Origin: Escherichia coli | GTDB lineage: Bacteria; Pseudomonadota; Gammaproteobacteria; Enterobacterales; Enterobacteriaceae | Assembly (NCBI RefSeq): GCF_001677475.2 | Contig: NZ_CP015229.1 | DNA: 64,000 bases | Strand: one strand, 5' to 3' | Shown here: piece by piece, positions 18,076 through 21,300 of the stretch | Layout: every line of letters starts with the position of its first letter | Numbering within the stretch: position 1 is the first letter of the stretch | Program-made: the position numbers and the translations under genes | The notes under the pieces: model-generated | Database searches by the model: none | Told to the model about the DNA's origin: nothing | The model's input: only the letters and a program-made list of their open reading frames with translations

Positions 18076-19863
18076 TTATGCAAAATCCTCAAGGTGACGA
18101 CTGATACTGTTTTCACGGTAACAGGTCACCAGTAATTCACGGGTTGCCCGGGTGAACGCCACATAAAGCACCGGGATTACTTCAGACTCATCCGCTACAC
18201 CAGAGTGAACGAAAGACGCATTGATAACTGCCACATACGGGAACTCCAGCCCCTTACTGCTCTGGTACGTCAGTAAATGCACCACATCCTTGCGTCGCGA
18301 GTATGTCTTCTTGCCTTCCTTGTCAAAGCAGGTGGCAAAAGGTATCCCACGCTGTGTCATAACCTCTGTCAGTTGTTTCACTGAAAACTCTGCCGGACAC
18401 AGCACAGCCATATCACTCCAGTGACCGCACAGGGCATGGCGCTTCTCCAGCCAGTCTGCGACCTGTCTGGCTTCATCACGCTCAGAAGTACAACGCAGGA
18501 TTTCCGGCTCTGTGCCTTCTTCACCGCCTGCCTGTGGCTGAACGAGCGGTATTTCACGGTTCTGATGTTTTTCAAAATACTCGCGGGAGAATGCATAAGC
18601 AAAGTGCAGAATGCGTTTCGGATTACGATAATTGACCGGCAGGACAGAAGTGCGTCCCTGTGCCTGAATCCCCACACTGGCCAGAGAAAAGTTCAGGGCC
18701 CGCTCCCGCCGGTAAATGGACTGGGCATCATCGTACATCAGGAGCAGTGAACGGGATGCGTTATCAAACAGACGGGCAATCAGTGCCAGCCAGCGACTGT
18801 CAAAATCATGCCCCTCATCCACCAGTACAGCATCATATCCGGTTTGGGTGATTTTTCCGCTGTTCACGGCCTCTTCCAGTGCACTGAAGCATTTCTCAGG
18901 ATATTCTTTTCTGTCGGCCGTCACCTTAATACCGTGGCGTTTTACCATTGAGGCACACCAGCTGTGAAAATGAGATACCGTAACCCGTGACCTCAGCCCT
19001 CTGGCCTCAATGCATTCCCGCAGATAGCTGGCCAGGGTAATGTTGTAGCACAACACCAGAATCTTTCCGGACGTGGTTTCTGCCAGGTAAAGGCAACGGA
19101 ACAAAAGAATCATGGTTTTTCCGGAACCGGCCACACCATGAATGACACGATGCCCGTCACCAATATTTCTGGCCAGAATCTCCTGCTGGATATCCATGAT
19201 TTTGATTTGTGAGTTCTGTTTCACGGTCACTTCAGGAAACAGATGGGCGCGCAGAATATCTCTCATCCGGGGTGTCACCCGGGTTCTGAATCCCGTGGTA
19301 AACATCCCGGCAATTTTTTGCCGGAACACTTCCGGTAGCACAGACGCAGTCATTTCATCCTGGCAGATTGTCTGTGCTGAAGGAAAAATCTTTTCCACCG
19401 CATTCTCATCATTCCCTGCCAGTGTCTTCAGTTGCTGACGGGTAATGCGGGTAAACACCACACCATACGCCCAGGCCAGGTTCAGCCGTCCCTTATACTG
19501 ACCGTCATTCTGCCGTAAGCACGGGTCTGCAGGTAAGGCATTAACCGTATCACAGGCATAACGACGAACCTGTACCAGCGGATTGATTTCTGATTTCAGA
19601 AGACCGTCGGTTTCCAGCGTGACCTGCTCCTGATTTACCTGGCGCAGCGTGGAAACCGTCCAGTCCTTGACCTCCAGAAATACCAGTCCGTTCTCCGGGT
19701 CAATAATGACAAAATCCGGATGCCGGTTTTTCCGTCCCACCGGAATATCGTACCAGACAAGGCAGTCATCATTCAGAAAGCTCTCCAGTCGTGAAGCCAC
19801 CCTCCTCTCCCCGGACGTCATTCTCTCCTCAGTGGACGCCGATACATTTATCAGTTTCGCCAT
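18076..19863 (-). CDS. NERD-domain + superfamily-1 (UvrD-like) helicase fusion protein; candidate single-protein anti-phage defence (Nhi-like architecture)
   Basis: 595 aa. N-terminal NERD-like nuclease-related region (VWYDIPVGRKNRHPDFVIIDPENGLVFLEVKDW), Walker A GVAGSGKT, DExx box VLVDEGHDF, C-terminal UvrD_C-like motifs (YQSSKGLEFPYVAV, VAFTRATRELLV). Confidence 0.8.
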   Translation of the reverse strand: MAKLINVSASTEERMTSGERRVASRLESFLNDDCLVWYDIPVGRKNRHPDFVIIDPENGLVFLEVKDWTVSTLRQVNQEQVTLETDGLLKSEINPLVQVRRYACDTVNALPADPCLRQNDGQYKGRLNLAWAYGVVFTRITRQQLKTLAGNDENAVEKIFPSAQTICQDEMTASVLPEVFRQKIAGMFTTGFRTRVTPRMRDILRAHLFPEVTVKQNSQIKIMDIQQEILARNIGDGHRVIHGVAGSGKTMILLFRCLYLAETTSGKILVLCYNITLASYLRECIEARGLRSRVTVSHFHSWCASMVKRHGIKVTADRKEYPEKCFSALEEAVNSGKITQTGYDAVLVDEGHDFDSRWLALIARLFDNASRSLLLMYDDAQSIYRRERALNFSLASVGIQAQGRTSVLPVNYRNPKRILHFAYAFSREYFEKHQNREIPLVQPQAGGEEGTEPEILRCTSERDEARQVADWLEKRHALCGHWSDMAVLCPAEFSVKQLTEVMTQRGIPFATCFDKEGKKTYSRRKDVVHLLTYQSSKGLEFPYVAVINASFVHSGVADESEVIPVLYVAFTRATRELLVTCYRENSISRHLEDFA

Positions 19864-20055
19864 AAACGCACCTTAATCTGTGAACAAAAAAATAATCACC
19901 ACCGACACCCACGACGTTATATCGTGGGTGTCGTTTTATTCAGAAATAAAAAACAGAATCATTAACATGACCGGAATACTGTGAACCATGCTGCAGGATA
20001 TCTGCAGATATCCCTCCTGTTATATCCGGCCGGAATAAAATCAGAACACTGATTG

Positions 20056-21300
20056 TCAGGCAGCTTCATTTTCCGCGTACTCCAGACTCTGCAGATACTG
20101 CAGCGCCGCCGGATCAGCCACATATTCCACCTGCCCGTGGTGACGCTCCACTTCATTAATGATTCTCTCAAGTTTCACGCGGAAAAATTCTTTACGCAGG
20201 TTAATCCTGTTAATGCGGTATTTTTCCAGACTGTCATGAAGTGTTTTTTCCAGCGCGGGCGCATCATCACAGGAAATCATGGCGTGAACATCAAAATCAA
20301 ACGGAACAGAAGCACCACTTAACTCTTTGACCCTGTCCATGGGTTCCAGCCGTCGGGTCATACCAATTTTAAAGACATCCTCACCAAACGAACCAATATT
20401 CGAAATGATATAAACATGCCCCTGTTTCGTAAGCTGAGCCATGGATTTAGCACGTTCATACTGCGCATGCGCTTCCTGAATTTTCTGTTCCAGCGCCAGG
20501 CGTTGTTTCTCTAACGCCTCCCTGTGAGCCCCTTCTGCTGCACGCAGCGCCTCTTCAATCAGTTTCTGCTGCTCAGCAAGACGCCGTTCTTCCTCTTCCG
20601 CTTCCCGCTGGCGCCGGTCAAGTTCATCCTGACGCTCTTTTTCTTCACGCATCTGACGCTTAAGCTCTGCCTGATATTCCTTTTCTTCCTGCGCTTTTTC
20701 CAGTAATGCCACTTTGTCCAGAAACTGTTGCCTGACACTCTCCCAGTCAGAATTATCTTCCAGGTTAAGAAAGGCTATTTTCTCACTGACAGCAGCGTAA
20801 GCCTCTCTTTCCTTACGAAGCTGATCATATTTGTTTTGCCAGTTATTAATCGTTACACCAGCCAGCAGAGTTTTCGCCTTAAATTTCCAGGCGGAATCAA
20901 CAATCCGTTGCATTGCACGGCTGGCCTTCTGTCTGGCGGTATGAAACTCCTCACGACGTCTGGCAAGTTGCTTCTTTTCCTGTCGTATTCCCCGGGCTAT
21001 CGCGGCATTGACAGTTTCATTAAAATCCCGCTCCCTCTGAACCAGCTCCGAAACGGCCTGCTCAAAGGCTGCTGTTTTCTTTCTGAGTCTCCGGTAAATA
21101 AAAAAACGAAGTAAAATTGCAAATACAGTAAGCAAACCAAAAAACAAACCAATAATACCTGCCGGATTCGATACTGCATCAATAAAGCGCTCATTAAGAT
21201 TTATCAGCGCCCTGACCGCCACATAAATCCCCCAGAGAATAACGCAAATTAAAATCAGGACAAATCCCGCTGCATTATCATCTTTTTTTCTTCCTGCCAT
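20056..21300 (-). CDS. Membrane-anchored coiled-coil protein with C-terminal T5orf172 (GIY-YIG-like) domain (DUF4041/T5orf172 architecture); candidate defence effector
   Basis: 414 aa. Two N-terminal hydrophobic helices (FVLILICVILWGIYVAV, IIGLFFGLLTVFAILLRFFIY), a ~220-aa charged coiled coil (E/K/R/Q-rich), and a C-terminal domain GHVYIISNIGSFGEDVFKIGMTRRLEPMDRVKEL...FDFDVHAMI matching the T5orf172/GIY-YIG-like fold. Confidence 0.7.
   Translation of the reverse strand: MAGRKKDDNAAGFVLILICVILWGIYVAVRALINLNERFIDAVSNPAGIIGLFFGLLTVFAILLRFFIYRRLRKKTAAFEQAVSELVQRERDFNETVNAAIARGIRQEKKQLARRREEFHTARQKASRAMQRIVDSAWKFKAKTLLAGVTINNWQNKYDQLRKEREAYAAVSEKIAFLNLEDNSDWESVRQQFLDKVALLEKAQEEKEYQAELKRQMREEKERQDELDRRQREAEEEERRLAEQQKLIEEALRAAEGAHREALEKQRLALEQKIQEAHAQYERAKSMAQLTKQGHVYIISNIGSFGEDVFKIGMTRRLEPMDRVKELSGASVPFDFDVHAMISCDDAPALEKTLHDSLEKYRINRINLRKEFFRVKLERIINEVERHHGQVEYVADPAALQYLQSLEYAENEAA

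What the first reader, a model, noticed from the sequence alone, without database searches (positions are those of the whole stretch)
18076..21300. Two adjacent candidate anti-phage defence genes in an IS-flanked hotspot: DUF4041/T5orf172 membrane protein and NERD-helicase fusion
Two same-strand genes, about 190 bp apart, sit between IS66/IS3 debris and the fimbrial cluster. The upstream gene (20056-21300) encodes two N-terminal transmembrane helices, a long charged coiled coil and a C-terminal T5orf172/GIY-YIG-like domain, an architecture expected of a membrane-tethered nuclease effector. The downstream gene (18076-19863) fuses a NERD nuclease-related domain to a complete SF1 helicase (Walker A GVAGSGKT, DExx VLVDEGHDF, UvrD_C motifs), resembling the nuclease-helicase organisation of Nhi-type single-protein immunity systems. 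I do not recognise this pairing as a named system; they may be two independent modules or one unit.
Basis: partly seen in the sequence, partly recalled or inferred. Interest (0 to 1): 0.8.

Follow-up and report, generated by a model that had tools for sequence, protein, structure and literature searches.

The report
Two nuclease genes in a T6SS relic
The two genes are real and are probably separate DNA-cutting defence genes, one a relative of the known SNIPE anti-phage nuclease; they are left over from the tail end of a type VI secretion gene cluster, where relatives of both sit in many enterobacteria.

Summary
Both ORFs exist exactly as described. The upstream 414-aa protein has two N-terminal TM helices, long helices and a T5orf172/GIY-YIG nuclease with an intact catalytic set. 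It is a partial relative of SNIPE (PD-lambda-1), with 52% identity over the linker and nuclease only. Pfam DUF4041 is not detected, although predicted helices match SNIPE one-to-one from SNIPE residue 185 onward.

The downstream 595-aa protein is a full-length member of an untested NERD+UvrD family (PADLOC C3a187). Its PD..ExK and SF1 motifs are conserved. It is not Nhi or GajB.

The pair is not obligate. The nuclease occurs without the helicase in at least 9 species, and the helicase occurs without the nuclease in about 480 E. coli genomes and in one T6SS cluster.

The main correction concerns context. These are EC042_4547 and EC042_4548 of the EAEC Sci-1 T6SS accessory operon (tssE-ydcA-nuclease-helicase-4549-tagA). 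In the window the T6SS core is gone, and tagA and 4549 are broken. The two genes remain intact under purifying selection (dN/dS 0.08-0.21).

I call this a new variant of a known kind. Anti-phage function is inferred, not shown.

The parts
20056..21300 (-). 414-aa membrane-anchored T5orf172/GIY-YIG nuclease, a SNIPE/PD-lambda-1 relative (homolog of EC042_4547)
   Evidence: ORF. Pfam T5orf172/MUG113 at 294-386. PADLOC PD-Lambda-1 3.8e-88, partial. 52% identity to SNIPE over 211-406. phrog_8430 full length, 3e-130.
21094..21273 (-). N-terminal two-TM hairpin (residues about 10-69); N and C termini inferred cytoplasmic
   Evidence: Hydropathy. AF2 helices 10-34 and 46 onward. Positive charge flanks both ends: RKK at the N-terminus and RRLRKK after TM2. 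68% mean identity across genera.
20701..20937 (-). Conserved central helical domain (residues 122-200), at the position of SNIPE's DUF4041
   Evidence: pLDDT 90-96. Helices match SNIPE at a constant offset of 63. hhalign local P=0.0076, in register. No Pfam hit. N153 is nearly invariant across 71 homologs.
20425..20700 (-). Charged coiled-coil linker (residues 201-292)
   Evidence: AF2 helices 186-254 and 258-292. Aligns to SNIPE 274-355.
20131..20424 (-). GIY-YIG/T5orf172 nuclease domain (residues 293-390). Y297, G313, R316/R317, E351 and N364 are invariant; E351 corresponds to SNIPE catalytic E414.
19864..20055 (.). 192-bp intergenic spacer holding a perfect 12-bp hairpin (19903-19933). The spacer is conserved in E. 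coli but is only 60-77 bp, with no hairpin, in Serratia and Pectobacterium.
18076..19863 (-). 595-aa NERD + UvrD-type SF1 nuclease-helicase (homolog of EC042_4548)
   Evidence: ORF. Pfam. PADLOC C3a187 1.1e-142, full length. The start at 19863 is conserved in Serratia and Pectobacterium and across the family.
19540..19815 (-). NERD (PD-(D/E)xK-type) nuclease domain, residues 17-108. D50 is invariant; E64 and K66 are nearly invariant.
18109..19203 (-). SF1A helicase core, residues 221-585: Walker A K249, DE349/350, Q381, R413, T571/R572
21456..21857 (-). YdcA-family small secreted protein (homolog of EC042_4546), first gene of the relic block
17734..18010 (-). Frameshifted remnant of the 101-aa EC042_4549 homolog
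   Evidence: Two overlapping ORFs against the intact 101-aa ORF in EAEC 042.
16878..17682 (-). Frameshifted tagA (ImpA_N/VasL T6SS accessory gene) remnant, truncated by IS
   Evidence: ORFs 17242-17682 and 16878-17258 match residues of the intact 455-aa EAEC 042 TagA ORF.
14077..16838 (.). IS66 (tnpA/B/C) plus an IS3 fragment that cut off the left end of the relic

Best explanation
The two genes are autonomous DNA-targeting genes. They ride in the tssE-ydcA-[nuclease]-[helicase]-4549-tagA accessory module of EAEC Sci-1-type T6SS clusters. In this window the T6SS core has been deleted and IS elements have eroded tagA, leaving a relic in which the two genes stay intact.

Gene 1 works like SNIPE. 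A two-TM hairpin holds it in the inner membrane (shown by sequence and model). Long cytoplasmic helices carry a positively charged helical domain and a GIY-YIG nuclease with all catalytic residues (shown). By inference from SNIPE, tethering keeps the nuclease off the chromosome, and it cuts DNA as that DNA crosses the inner membrane, for example during phage genome injection.

Gene 2 is a stand-alone nuclease-helicase. A UvrD-type SF1 motor is fused to an N-terminal PD..ExK (NERD) nuclease (shown). By inference it translocates on foreign or damaged DNA and degrades it.

Neither gene needs the other. Anti-phage activity is inferred for both and has not been demonstrated.
For: Homology and catalytic residues.

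Architecture: SNIPE's mechanism is described in bioRxiv 10.1101/2025.11.03.685801. L012 carries all nine residues named there. The predicted helices of the window protein match it one-to-one from SNIPE residue 185 onward.

Phage link: the closest non-T6SS relatives sit at moron positions of temperate phages. These are phiP27 (63% identity) and a Rahnella prophage, where the gene follows the Q antiterminator. phrog_8430 matches full length.

Independence:
- The nuclease occurs without the helicase in L005, L015-17, L019-21, L025 and L026.
- The helicase occurs without the nuclease in L097.
- In E. coli the helicase is in 614 genomes at >=80% coverage, against 141 with the nuclease.

T6SS context. 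EC042_4547/4548 are called accessory genes and are read through from the T6SS operon.

Retention after T6SS loss:
- Only 54 of the 141 nuclease-bearing E. coli genomes keep tssE/tssJ next door, and the deletion end points differ.
- dN/dS is 0.08-0.21, including relic against relic.
- The neighbouring tagA and 4549 are broken.
Against: No experiment shows defence by either protein.

For the nuclease:
- Pfam DUF4041, which SNIPE needs for defence, is not detected. The beta-containing subdomain at SNIPE 134-184 is absent.
- It is conserved across genera as well as or better than the T6SS core proteins (76-80% against TssF 61-80% and TssG 47-71%). It always lies at the same position. That pattern is unusual for a fast-turnover defence gene and hints at a T6SS-linked role.

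For the helicase:
- Relatives at about 40% identity lie in mixed contexts, including xseA-guaBA housekeeping.
- The gene is IS-disrupted in O157:H7 and other lineages.

For independence: in E. coli, 136 of 138 full-length nuclease genes have the helicase next door. Where both occur, they co-diverge (r=0.996, 5 loci).
Confidence: 0.6

Rival explanations
1. T6SS-linked function. The membrane nuclease, with the facultative helicase, is a true accessory component of this T6SS type, and its activity is tied to T6SS assembly or firing. It might be recruited to the membrane complex, baseplate or TagA site to deal with DNA there, or act only in T6SS-active cells.
For: - It holds the same position between tssE/ydcA and tagA in every full-length homolog found in more than 10 genera.
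- It is co-transcribed with the Sci-1 operon through RfaH/ops elements.
- It is as conserved as the core proteins, and its pairwise identities track tssE (r=0.73) and ydcA (r=0.79).
- Its N-terminal hairpin is conserved at 68%, unlike the hypervariable N-termini of SNIPE homologs.
Against: - Both genes are kept intact and under purifying selection in many E. coli genomes that have lost the T6SS core.
- Close relatives are prophage genes with no T6SS nearby.
- The slot also holds unrelated cargo, a CoA-transferase-like gene in L025.
- The reported ops2 phenotype could arise through tagA expression; that is my inference, as the preprint names no gene.
- The SNIPE paper does not mention T6SS at all.
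Confidence: 0.15
2. The two genes form one two-gene nuclease-helicase system, with the helicase feeding or licensing the membrane nuclease.
For: - The genes are adjacent, on the same strand and co-transcribed.
- 136 of 138 E. coli nuclease genes have the helicase adjacent.
- Co-divergence is r=0.996 over 5 loci.
- Many defence systems pair a nuclease with an SF1 or SF2 NTPase.
Against: - Each gene is found alone at the same locus type.
- The helicase carries its own nuclease domain.
- SNIPE defends as a single gene.
- A strong hairpin and a 192-bp spacer separate the genes in E. coli.
Confidence: 0.1
3. The upstream nuclease is a T6SS-delivered DNase effector and a neighbouring gene encodes its immunity protein.
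For: It lies inside a T6SS cluster and has a nuclease domain. GIY-YIG toxin domains do occur on Rhs effectors.
Against: - It has no PAAR, Rhs, MIX or other delivery domain.
- No small immunity gene is present. In Enterobacter, tagA follows after 45 bp.
- The two-TM N-in/C-in topology places the nuclease in the producer's own cytoplasm.
- Homologs occur in prophages with no T6SS.
Confidence: 0.02
4. The NERD-UvrD protein is a DNA repair or recombination helicase-nuclease with no role in immunity.
For: A 42%-identical homolog lies between xseA and guaBA. Other relatives have no defence neighbours. NCBIfam gives only sub-threshold PcrA, UvrD and HelD similarity.
Against: - Its distribution in E. 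coli is patchy (1047 of 5426 genomes), it is often IS-disrupted, and it is sometimes plasmid-borne.
- It sits in accessory islands next to IbrAB, PerC and other helicase genes.
- One homolog lies next to a TIR protein.
- It was flagged as a neighbour of type III CRISPR loci.
Confidence: 0.12

Closest known systems
SNIPE / PD-lambda-1 (Vassallo 2022; Saxton et al., bioRxiv 10.1101/2025.11.03.685801), represented here by L012:4044-5546 (500 aa)
   Same: - Both have an N-terminal membrane anchor, long cytoplasmic helices and a C-terminal T5orf172/GIY-YIG nuclease.
- Identity is 52% over the linker and nuclease.
- Catalytic E414 corresponds to E351.
- Predicted helices correspond one-to-one from SNIPE residue 185 onward.
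- The central region has net charge +4 in both.
- Two-TM versions make up 7% of SNIPE homologs.
   Different: - There is no Pfam DUF4041 hit, and the AFNxECD motif is replaced by AW/YKFK.
- It lacks SNIPE residues 134-184 (a helix plus beta strands).
- Only 43-58% of the PADLOC profile is covered.
- The N-terminus is conserved rather than hypervariable.
- It resides in a T6SS cluster rather than a lambdoid prophage.
Prophage-borne 409-aa variants (phage phiP27 'GIY-YIG nuclease family protein'; Rahnella, Raoultella and Enterobacter prophages)
   Same: 59-63% identity from residue about 117 to the end, covering the central domain, coiled coil and nuclease.
   Different: These have a single TM and an unrelated N-terminal 115 residues (18% identity). 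They sit at prophage moron positions, not in a T6SS cluster.
PADLOC C3a187 'NERD+UvrD' (cluster 187 of type III CRISPR-associated accessory genes, Shah 2018, PMC6546367)
   Same: Full-length profile match, 1.1e-142, residues 1-594 against profile positions 1-556 of 559.
   Different: That family was defined only by neighbourhood to type III cas genes in three genomes and has never been tested. No cas genes lie near this gene.
Nhi (Bari 2022) and Nhi-like (Millman 2022) single-protein nuclease-helicase immunity
   Same: One polypeptide with an N-terminal nuclease and a C-terminal SF1 NTPase.
   Different: The Nhi helicase is DUF2075/PF09848. This protein is UvrD/Rep-type, and PF09848 scores only 3e-3. 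The PADLOC Nhi model does not match it.
Gabija GajB / UvrD, PcrA, Rep
   Same: The SF1A helicase motifs are shared. GajB models score 4e-21 and PcrA 1e-12.
   Different: The matches are partial. No GajA (OLD/TOPRIM) partner is present. GajB and UvrD lack the N-terminal NERD nuclease.
EAEC Sci-1 T6SS accessory operon (EC042_4546-4550, ending in tagA)
   Same: Orthologous genes in the same order: 97% protein identity for both genes against EAEC 042.
   Different: In the window the T6SS core is missing, tagA and 4549 are pseudogenes, and the ops2 motif GGTAGCTT reads GGTGGCTT.

Membership tests
SNIPE / PD-lambda-1 | N-terminal membrane anchor that keeps the nuclease off the nucleoid | tested here: met
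   Two hydrophobic helices at about 12-32 and 47-69. The charge distribution fits an N-in/C-in topology. Localisation itself was not tested.
SNIPE / PD-lambda-1 | DUF4041 (PF13250) domain, required for defence and DNA binding in SNIPE | tested here: inconclusive
   There is no Pfam hit at E<=10, against 1e-19 in SNIPE. A custom HMM was not significant. hhalign gave local P=0.0076 in register. Predicted helices correspond at offset 63, but the SNIPE 134-184 subdomain is absent.
SNIPE / PD-lambda-1 | C-terminal GIY-YIG/T5orf172 nuclease with the catalytic Glu (E414) | tested here: met
   Pfam 9e-17. E351 aligns to E414 and is invariant in 71 sequences.
SNIPE / PD-lambda-1 | Full-length match to the PD-Lambda-1 profiles | tested here: not met
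   Residues 201-412 match profile positions 264-476 of 491, and residues 125-412 match 189-475 of 496. SNIPE itself matches 1-485, at 2e-198.
SNIPE / PD-lambda-1 | Blocks siphovirus infection by cleaving DNA during injection; contacts the tape measure protein and the entry machinery | not testable with these tools
   Needs plaque assays, labelled-DNA injection assays and proximity labelling.
Nhi / Nhi-like | DUF2075 (PF09848) helicase domain fused to an N-terminal nuclease | tested here: not met
   PF09848 scores only E=3.3e-3 over the P-loop region, while the UvrD-family domains score 1e-7. No PADLOC Nhi hit appears among the 25 families listed of 34 matched. The Serratia homolog scores 1e-5 over 50 residues.
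Gabija | GajB helicase partnered with a GajA OLD/TOPRIM nuclease | tested here: not met
   GajB models match only partially, best 4e-21 over residues 335-523. No OLD/TOPRIM gene was annotated among the neighbours at any of the four annotated or Pfam-listed loci with the helicase. The window itself was only ORF-scanned.
C3a187 (type III CRISPR-associated NERD+UvrD) | Full-length similarity to the cluster profile | tested here: met
   1.1e-142, residues 1-594 against profile positions 1-556 of 559.
C3a187 (type III CRISPR-associated NERD+UvrD) | Encoded next to a type III CRISPR-Cas cassette | tested here: not met
   The neighbours within about 8 kb are IS elements, T6SS relics and fimbrial genes. 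No cas genes appear at any related locus inspected.
T6SS effector-immunity pair | Delivery domain (PAAR, Rhs, MIX, VgrG fusion) and an adjacent immunity gene | tested here: not met
   The protein has no such Pfam domain. There is no small downstream gene in the helicase-less loci.
EAEC Sci-1-type T6SS accessory operon | Gene order tssE-ydcA-4547-4548-4549-tagA with orthologous sequences | tested here: met
   The order ydcA, 4547, 4548, 4549', tagA' is retained in the window. Both genes are 97% identical at protein level to those of EAEC 042. tssE and everything upstream of it are deleted.

The most novel reading that the evidence does not exclude
A SNIPE-class membrane nuclease, with a facultative NERD-UvrD nuclease-helicase, is a conserved and co-transcribed component of a recombining tssE-tagA accessory module of enterobacterial T6SS clusters. 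Under this reading its conserved two-TM adapter targets it to the T6SS envelope complex or to T6SS-active cells, coupling contact-dependent killing to surveillance of DNA entering through the envelope. That would be a functional link between a secretion weapon and an anti-phage nuclease that neither the SNIPE nor the T6SS paper read here describes.
Probability: 0.15. Interest if true: 0.75.

Novelty: new variant of a known kind. Interest (0 to 1): 0.5.

Why it matters
If gene 1 defends, it extends SNIPE-type cleavage at the membrane to a branch with a different anchor and a pared-down central domain. That would help define which parts of DUF4041 are really needed.

The genes correspond to EC042_4547 and EC042_4548 of the well-studied EAEC Sci-1 cluster. 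The one paper found that names them calls them only 'accessory genes', and their fixed position across more than 10 genera has no explanation in the papers I read.

The tssE-tagA block evolves as a module separate from tssF/G/J. This matters for how T6SS clusters are assembled and typed.

The NERD-UvrD family is large, with 564 representatives of 50%-identity clusters at E<=1e-30, and it is untested. A positive result would add a widespread single-gene system.

Tried and rejected
- Pfam DUF4041 on the 414-aa protein gave no hit.
- A custom HMM of the DUF4041 region from 30 homologs, searched against the N-terminal 212 residues, scored about 0-2 bits, which is not significant.
- hhalign on the central regions gave only P=0.0076 and probability 5%.
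- NCBIfam found no family for the nuclease and only sub-cutoff helicase hits.
- Sequence and fold searches against PDB found nothing useful for the nuclease: no significant match for the 414-aa model, with only weak Slx1 hits at E of about 0.5-1. The helicase was searched by sequence only and matched just PcrA, UvrD and Rep.
- Foldseek against AFDB returned DUF4041 proteins as full-length matches, but with low TM-scores because the molecules are elongated. It cannot isolate the central domain.
- A search for the RfaH ops2 motif GGTAGNNT found nothing in the window's intergenic spacer. In EAEC 042 the only nearby copy lies within the first codons of the helicase ORF.
- A literature search for T6SS plus GIY-YIG or NERD found only Rhs-GIY-YIG effectors, which are unrelated.
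- The first search for homologous proteins list for the helicase held only near-identical E. coli copies.
- The effector-immunity reading was considered and rejected (see rival explanations).

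
Full report
**Observation**

Both ORFs are present at exactly the stated coordinates on the minus strand: 20056-21300 (414 aa) and 18076-19863 (595 aa), 192 bp apart. IS66 tnpA/B/C (14077-16466) and an IS3 fragment (16632-16838) lie to the left. An F4/K88-type fae fimbrial cluster lies to the right.

Pfam supports T5orf172 and MUG113 at residues 294-386 of the upstream protein. 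It supports NERD (17-108) plus UvrD-helicase, AAA_19, UvrD_C and UvrD_C_2 in the downstream protein. Two hydrophobic helices (about 12-32 and 47-69) and long helices up to residue 292 are seen by hydropathy and in an AlphaFold2 model with mean pLDDT 78.5.

The one named feature that fails is DUF4041. PF13250 gives no hit even at E<=10.

**The upstream gene**

PADLOC's two PD-Lambda-1 models hit at 3.8e-88 and 4.8e-83, but only over residues 201-412 and 125-412, which is 43-58% of each profile. PD-lambda-1 has been renamed SNIPE. It is a single-gene system with one TM helix, a DUF4041 domain and a GIY-YIG nuclease. It sits in the inner membrane, cleaves phage DNA during injection, and associates with ManYZ and the tape measure protein (bioRxiv 10.1101/2025.11.03.685801).

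A 500-aa protein from an E. coli lambdoid prophage region carried on plasmid record CP061260.1 (L012) matches the PADLOC models full length at 2e-198. It carries all nine residues named in that paper, so I used it as SNIPE.

- The window protein aligns to it only over 211-406 against 274-470, at 52% identity.
- SNIPE's catalytic E414 corresponds to E351, which is invariant in 71 homologs together with Y297, G313, R316/R317 and N364.
- Pfam places DUF4041 at SNIPE residues 198-252.
- The positionally equivalent window segment (about 135-189) lies in a central region that is strongly conserved within its own family. It is not significantly similar to DUF4041: a custom HMM scored about 0-2 bits, and hhalign gave local P=0.0076 in register.
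- AlphaFold2 models of both proteins show helices that correspond one-to-one at a constant offset of 63 from SNIPE residue 185 onward. SNIPE H185-212, H219-236, H246-317 and H321-355 match the window protein's helix ending at 147, then 154-174, 186-254 and 258-292.
- The window protein lacks SNIPE's helix-plus-beta subdomain at 134-184.

I therefore read it as a SNIPE-class protein with a reduced or divergent central domain and a different membrane anchor. It is not a full member.

**The downstream gene**

The best PADLOC match is C3a187 'NERD+UvrD', at 1.1e-142 and full length. That model comes from a 2018 list of genes found next to type III CRISPR cassettes in three genomes, and it has no functional test. 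GajB, PcrA and UvrD matches are partial.

Across 55 homologs, the PD..ExK residues (D50, E64, K66) and the SF1 motifs (K249, D349/E350, Q381, R413, T571/R572) are invariant or nearly so. Both activities are therefore probably intact.

The family is large, with 564 representatives of 50%-identity clusters at E<=1e-30. Nhi and Nhi-like are defined by a DUF2075/PF09848 helicase. PF09848 scores only 3e-3 here, so the resemblance is architectural.

The start codon at 19863 is conserved in Serratia and Pectobacterium and across the family. The RefSeq 581-aa start is probably 14 codons too short.

**Context: the main correction**

Homologs of the nuclease at 76-80% identity in Serratia, Enterobacter and Pectobacterium sit inside T6SS clusters. 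The order is tssM-tssA-tssF-tssG-tssJ-tssE-(hyp)-ydcA-nuclease-[helicase]-tagA(ImpA_N/VasL).

In EAEC 042 the two genes follow tssE and ydcA and precede a 101-aa ORF and an intact 455-aa tagA ORF. By position they are EC042_4547 and EC042_4548. That numbering is inferred from my recollection that tssE is EC042_4545 and tagA is EC042_4550; neither tag was found in the searched papers.

A 2025 preprint calls these 'accessory genes'. It places an RfaH ops2 element between them and shows that a reporter after 4548 depends on ops1, ops2 and rfaH. So they are transcribed with the Sci-1 operon.

In the window, ydcA (21456-21857) is intact, 4549 is frameshifted (17734-18010), and tagA is frameshifted and truncated by IS elements (16878-17682). 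Everything from tssE upstream is missing.

**Is it a pair?**

A scan of one genome per species found 11 full-length homologs at 70% identity or more, plus a truncated copy in Pantoea dispersa. Wherever enough flanking sequence is held, they lie next to ydcA or tssE and are followed by tagA. Only two of them have the helicase. Adding the earlier loci gives at least 9 species-level loci with the nuclease alone and 5 with both.

One T6SS cluster (L097) has a 60%-identical helicase in the slot and no nuclease. One (L025) has a CoA-transferase-like gene and a lipoprotein there instead.

In 5,426 complete E. coli genomes:
- the nuclease is in 141;
- the helicase is in 1,047, of which 614 have >=80% coverage, and it is IS66-disrupted in O157:H7 and others;
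- the whole block is in 136.

EC22 is an example with the helicase alone. The two genes are therefore separable. Where both occur they share history: pairwise identities correlate at r=0.996 over 5 loci.

**Evolutionary pattern**

tssF, tssG and tssJ split into deep lineages, at about 61%, 50% and 50% identity. tssE, ydcA, the nuclease, the helicase and tagA do not follow that split. For example, L020 against L018 gives TssF 62% but TssE 96%, nuclease 94%, YdcA 87% and TagA 85%.

Nuclease identities correlate with tssE (0.73) and ydcA (0.79), but not with tssG (0.15). The tssE-tagA segment therefore behaves as its own recombining module, and the nuclease is a near-constant member of it. The nuclease is as conserved as the core proteins, including its N-terminal hairpin at 68%. 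That contrasts with the hypervariable N-termini reported for SNIPE homologs.

Against a purely T6SS-bound role:
- Only 54 of the 141 nuclease-bearing E. coli genomes keep tssE and tssJ next door, and the deletion end points differ.
- Both genes show dN/dS of 0.08-0.21, including between two relic loci.
- The closest relatives outside T6SS clusters are temperate-phage genes. These are phiP27 (63% over 117-413) and prophages of Rahnella, Raoultella and Enterobacter (59%). They have a single TM and an unrelated N-terminus, and in Rahnella the gene sits just after the Q antiterminator.
- phrog_8430 matches full length at 3e-130.

**Mechanism**

Shown: both genes are intact, conserved and carry complete catalytic motifs. 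Gene 1 has a membrane hairpin whose charge distribution puts both ends in the cytoplasm.

Inferred from SNIPE: tethering restrains the nuclease from the chromosome, and it cuts DNA entering across the inner membrane. The conserved central helices (net charge +4 in both proteins) may bind DNA or an entry factor.

Inferred from domain logic: gene 2 translocates on DNA with its UvrD-type motor and degrades it with the NERD nuclease. Its target and trigger are unknown. Its distant relatives have mixed contexts, including a TIR neighbour, a housekeeping xseA-guaBA setting and others, so a repair role cannot be excluded.

**Verdict**

The upstream gene is a variant of a named, studied system. The downstream gene belongs to a catalogued but untested family. 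They are not an obligate pair.

The 'hotspot' is the accessory end of an EAEC Sci-1-type T6SS cluster that has decayed here. The conserved residence of a SNIPE-class nuclease in that module is not described in the papers I could search, and it is the part worth following up.

Noticed in passing
window 16878-17682 (-): A tagA (ImpA_N/VasL) remnant is split by a frameshift into two ORFs (17242-17682 and 16878-17258) and cut off by the IS3/IS66 block. It is the last trace of T6SS machinery in the window.
   Followed up: yes
window 17734-18010 (-): The homolog of the 101-aa EC042_4549 ORF is frameshifted into two overlapping ORFs. The same gene is also frameshifted in E. coli EC22.
   Followed up: partly
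window 19794-19801 (-); L010 13738-13745 (-): The only nearby copy of the RfaH ops2 core motif reported for EAEC (GGTAGCTT) lies in codons 21-24 of the 595-aa helicase ORF, not in the intergenic spacer. In the window it reads GGTGGCTT, a synonymous GTA>GTG change, so the motif is lost.
   Followed up: partly
window 19903-19933: A perfect 12-bp hairpin (8 GC pairs, 7-nt loop) sits in the spacer between the two genes. It is terminator-like on the + strand and followed at a distance by a T-run on the gene strand. The spacer and hairpin are conserved in E. coli and absent from the 60-77 bp spacers of Serratia and Pectobacterium.
   Followed up: partly
L010 10228-11595 (-) (E. coli 042, NC_017626.1): RefSeq annotates tagA of EAEC 042 as three pseudogene fragments (ImpA_N, POTRA, VasL). 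The sequence holds one uninterrupted 455-aa ORF.
   Followed up: yes
window 19822-19863; RefSeq homologs such as WP_047661928.1: RefSeq starts the helicase at Met15 (581 aa, named '3'-5' exonuclease'). The upstream ATG with an AAGGTG Shine-Dalgarno sequence is conserved in Serratia and Pectobacterium, and M1-A2 is nearly invariant in the family, so 595 aa is more likely.
   Followed up: partly
L002-L026, L097 (T6SS loci): These T6SS clusters are mosaics. tssF/G/J form deep lineages at about 50-62% identity, while the adjacent tssE-ydcA-nuclease-tagA block is 85-96% identical across those lineages. This implies recombination at or near the tssJ/tssE boundary.
   Followed up: partly
L100 8001-9827: A 42%-identical homolog of the helicase lies between xseA and guaB-guaA in a 144-kb metagenomic contig. 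That is a housekeeping neighbourhood and sits oddly with a defence-only role for the family. Pfam hits on record for this homolog are helicase domains only, with no NERD.
   Followed up: no
L025 11338-13203: In Lelliottia the slot between the nuclease and tagA holds a 463-aa CoA-transferase-like protein and a 134-aa lipoprotein instead of the helicase. The position therefore accepts unrelated cargo.
   Followed up: no
L016 and L018 (one Enterobacteriaceae MAG): One metagenome bin carries two copies of the nuclease locus, one with the helicase and one without. This is either a genuine duplication of T6SS clusters or a mixed bin.
   Followed up: no
L001 and L010-L011 (E. coli SFE8, 042, EC22), next to the relic: The relic block is regularly followed by an IbrB-like protein, a PAPS reductase (IbrA-like), a PerC regulator and, in SFE8 and EC22, a large DEAD/DEAH helicase with an ATP-binding protein. 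This may be another island of DNA-related accessory genes.
   Followed up: no
window 22229-22236 (-): An ops-like GGTAGCGT lies about 370 bp upstream of ydcA, in AT-rich sequence with no homology to the EAEC cluster. Seven such motifs occur in the window against 18 expected by chance, so it may mean nothing.
   Followed up: no
window 23057-24488 (-): An EAL-domain protein (252 aa) and an overlapping 227-aa ORF that resembles a response regulator (unverified) sit between the relic and the fae-type fimbrial genes. They are probably regulators of the fimbrial cluster.
   Followed up: no
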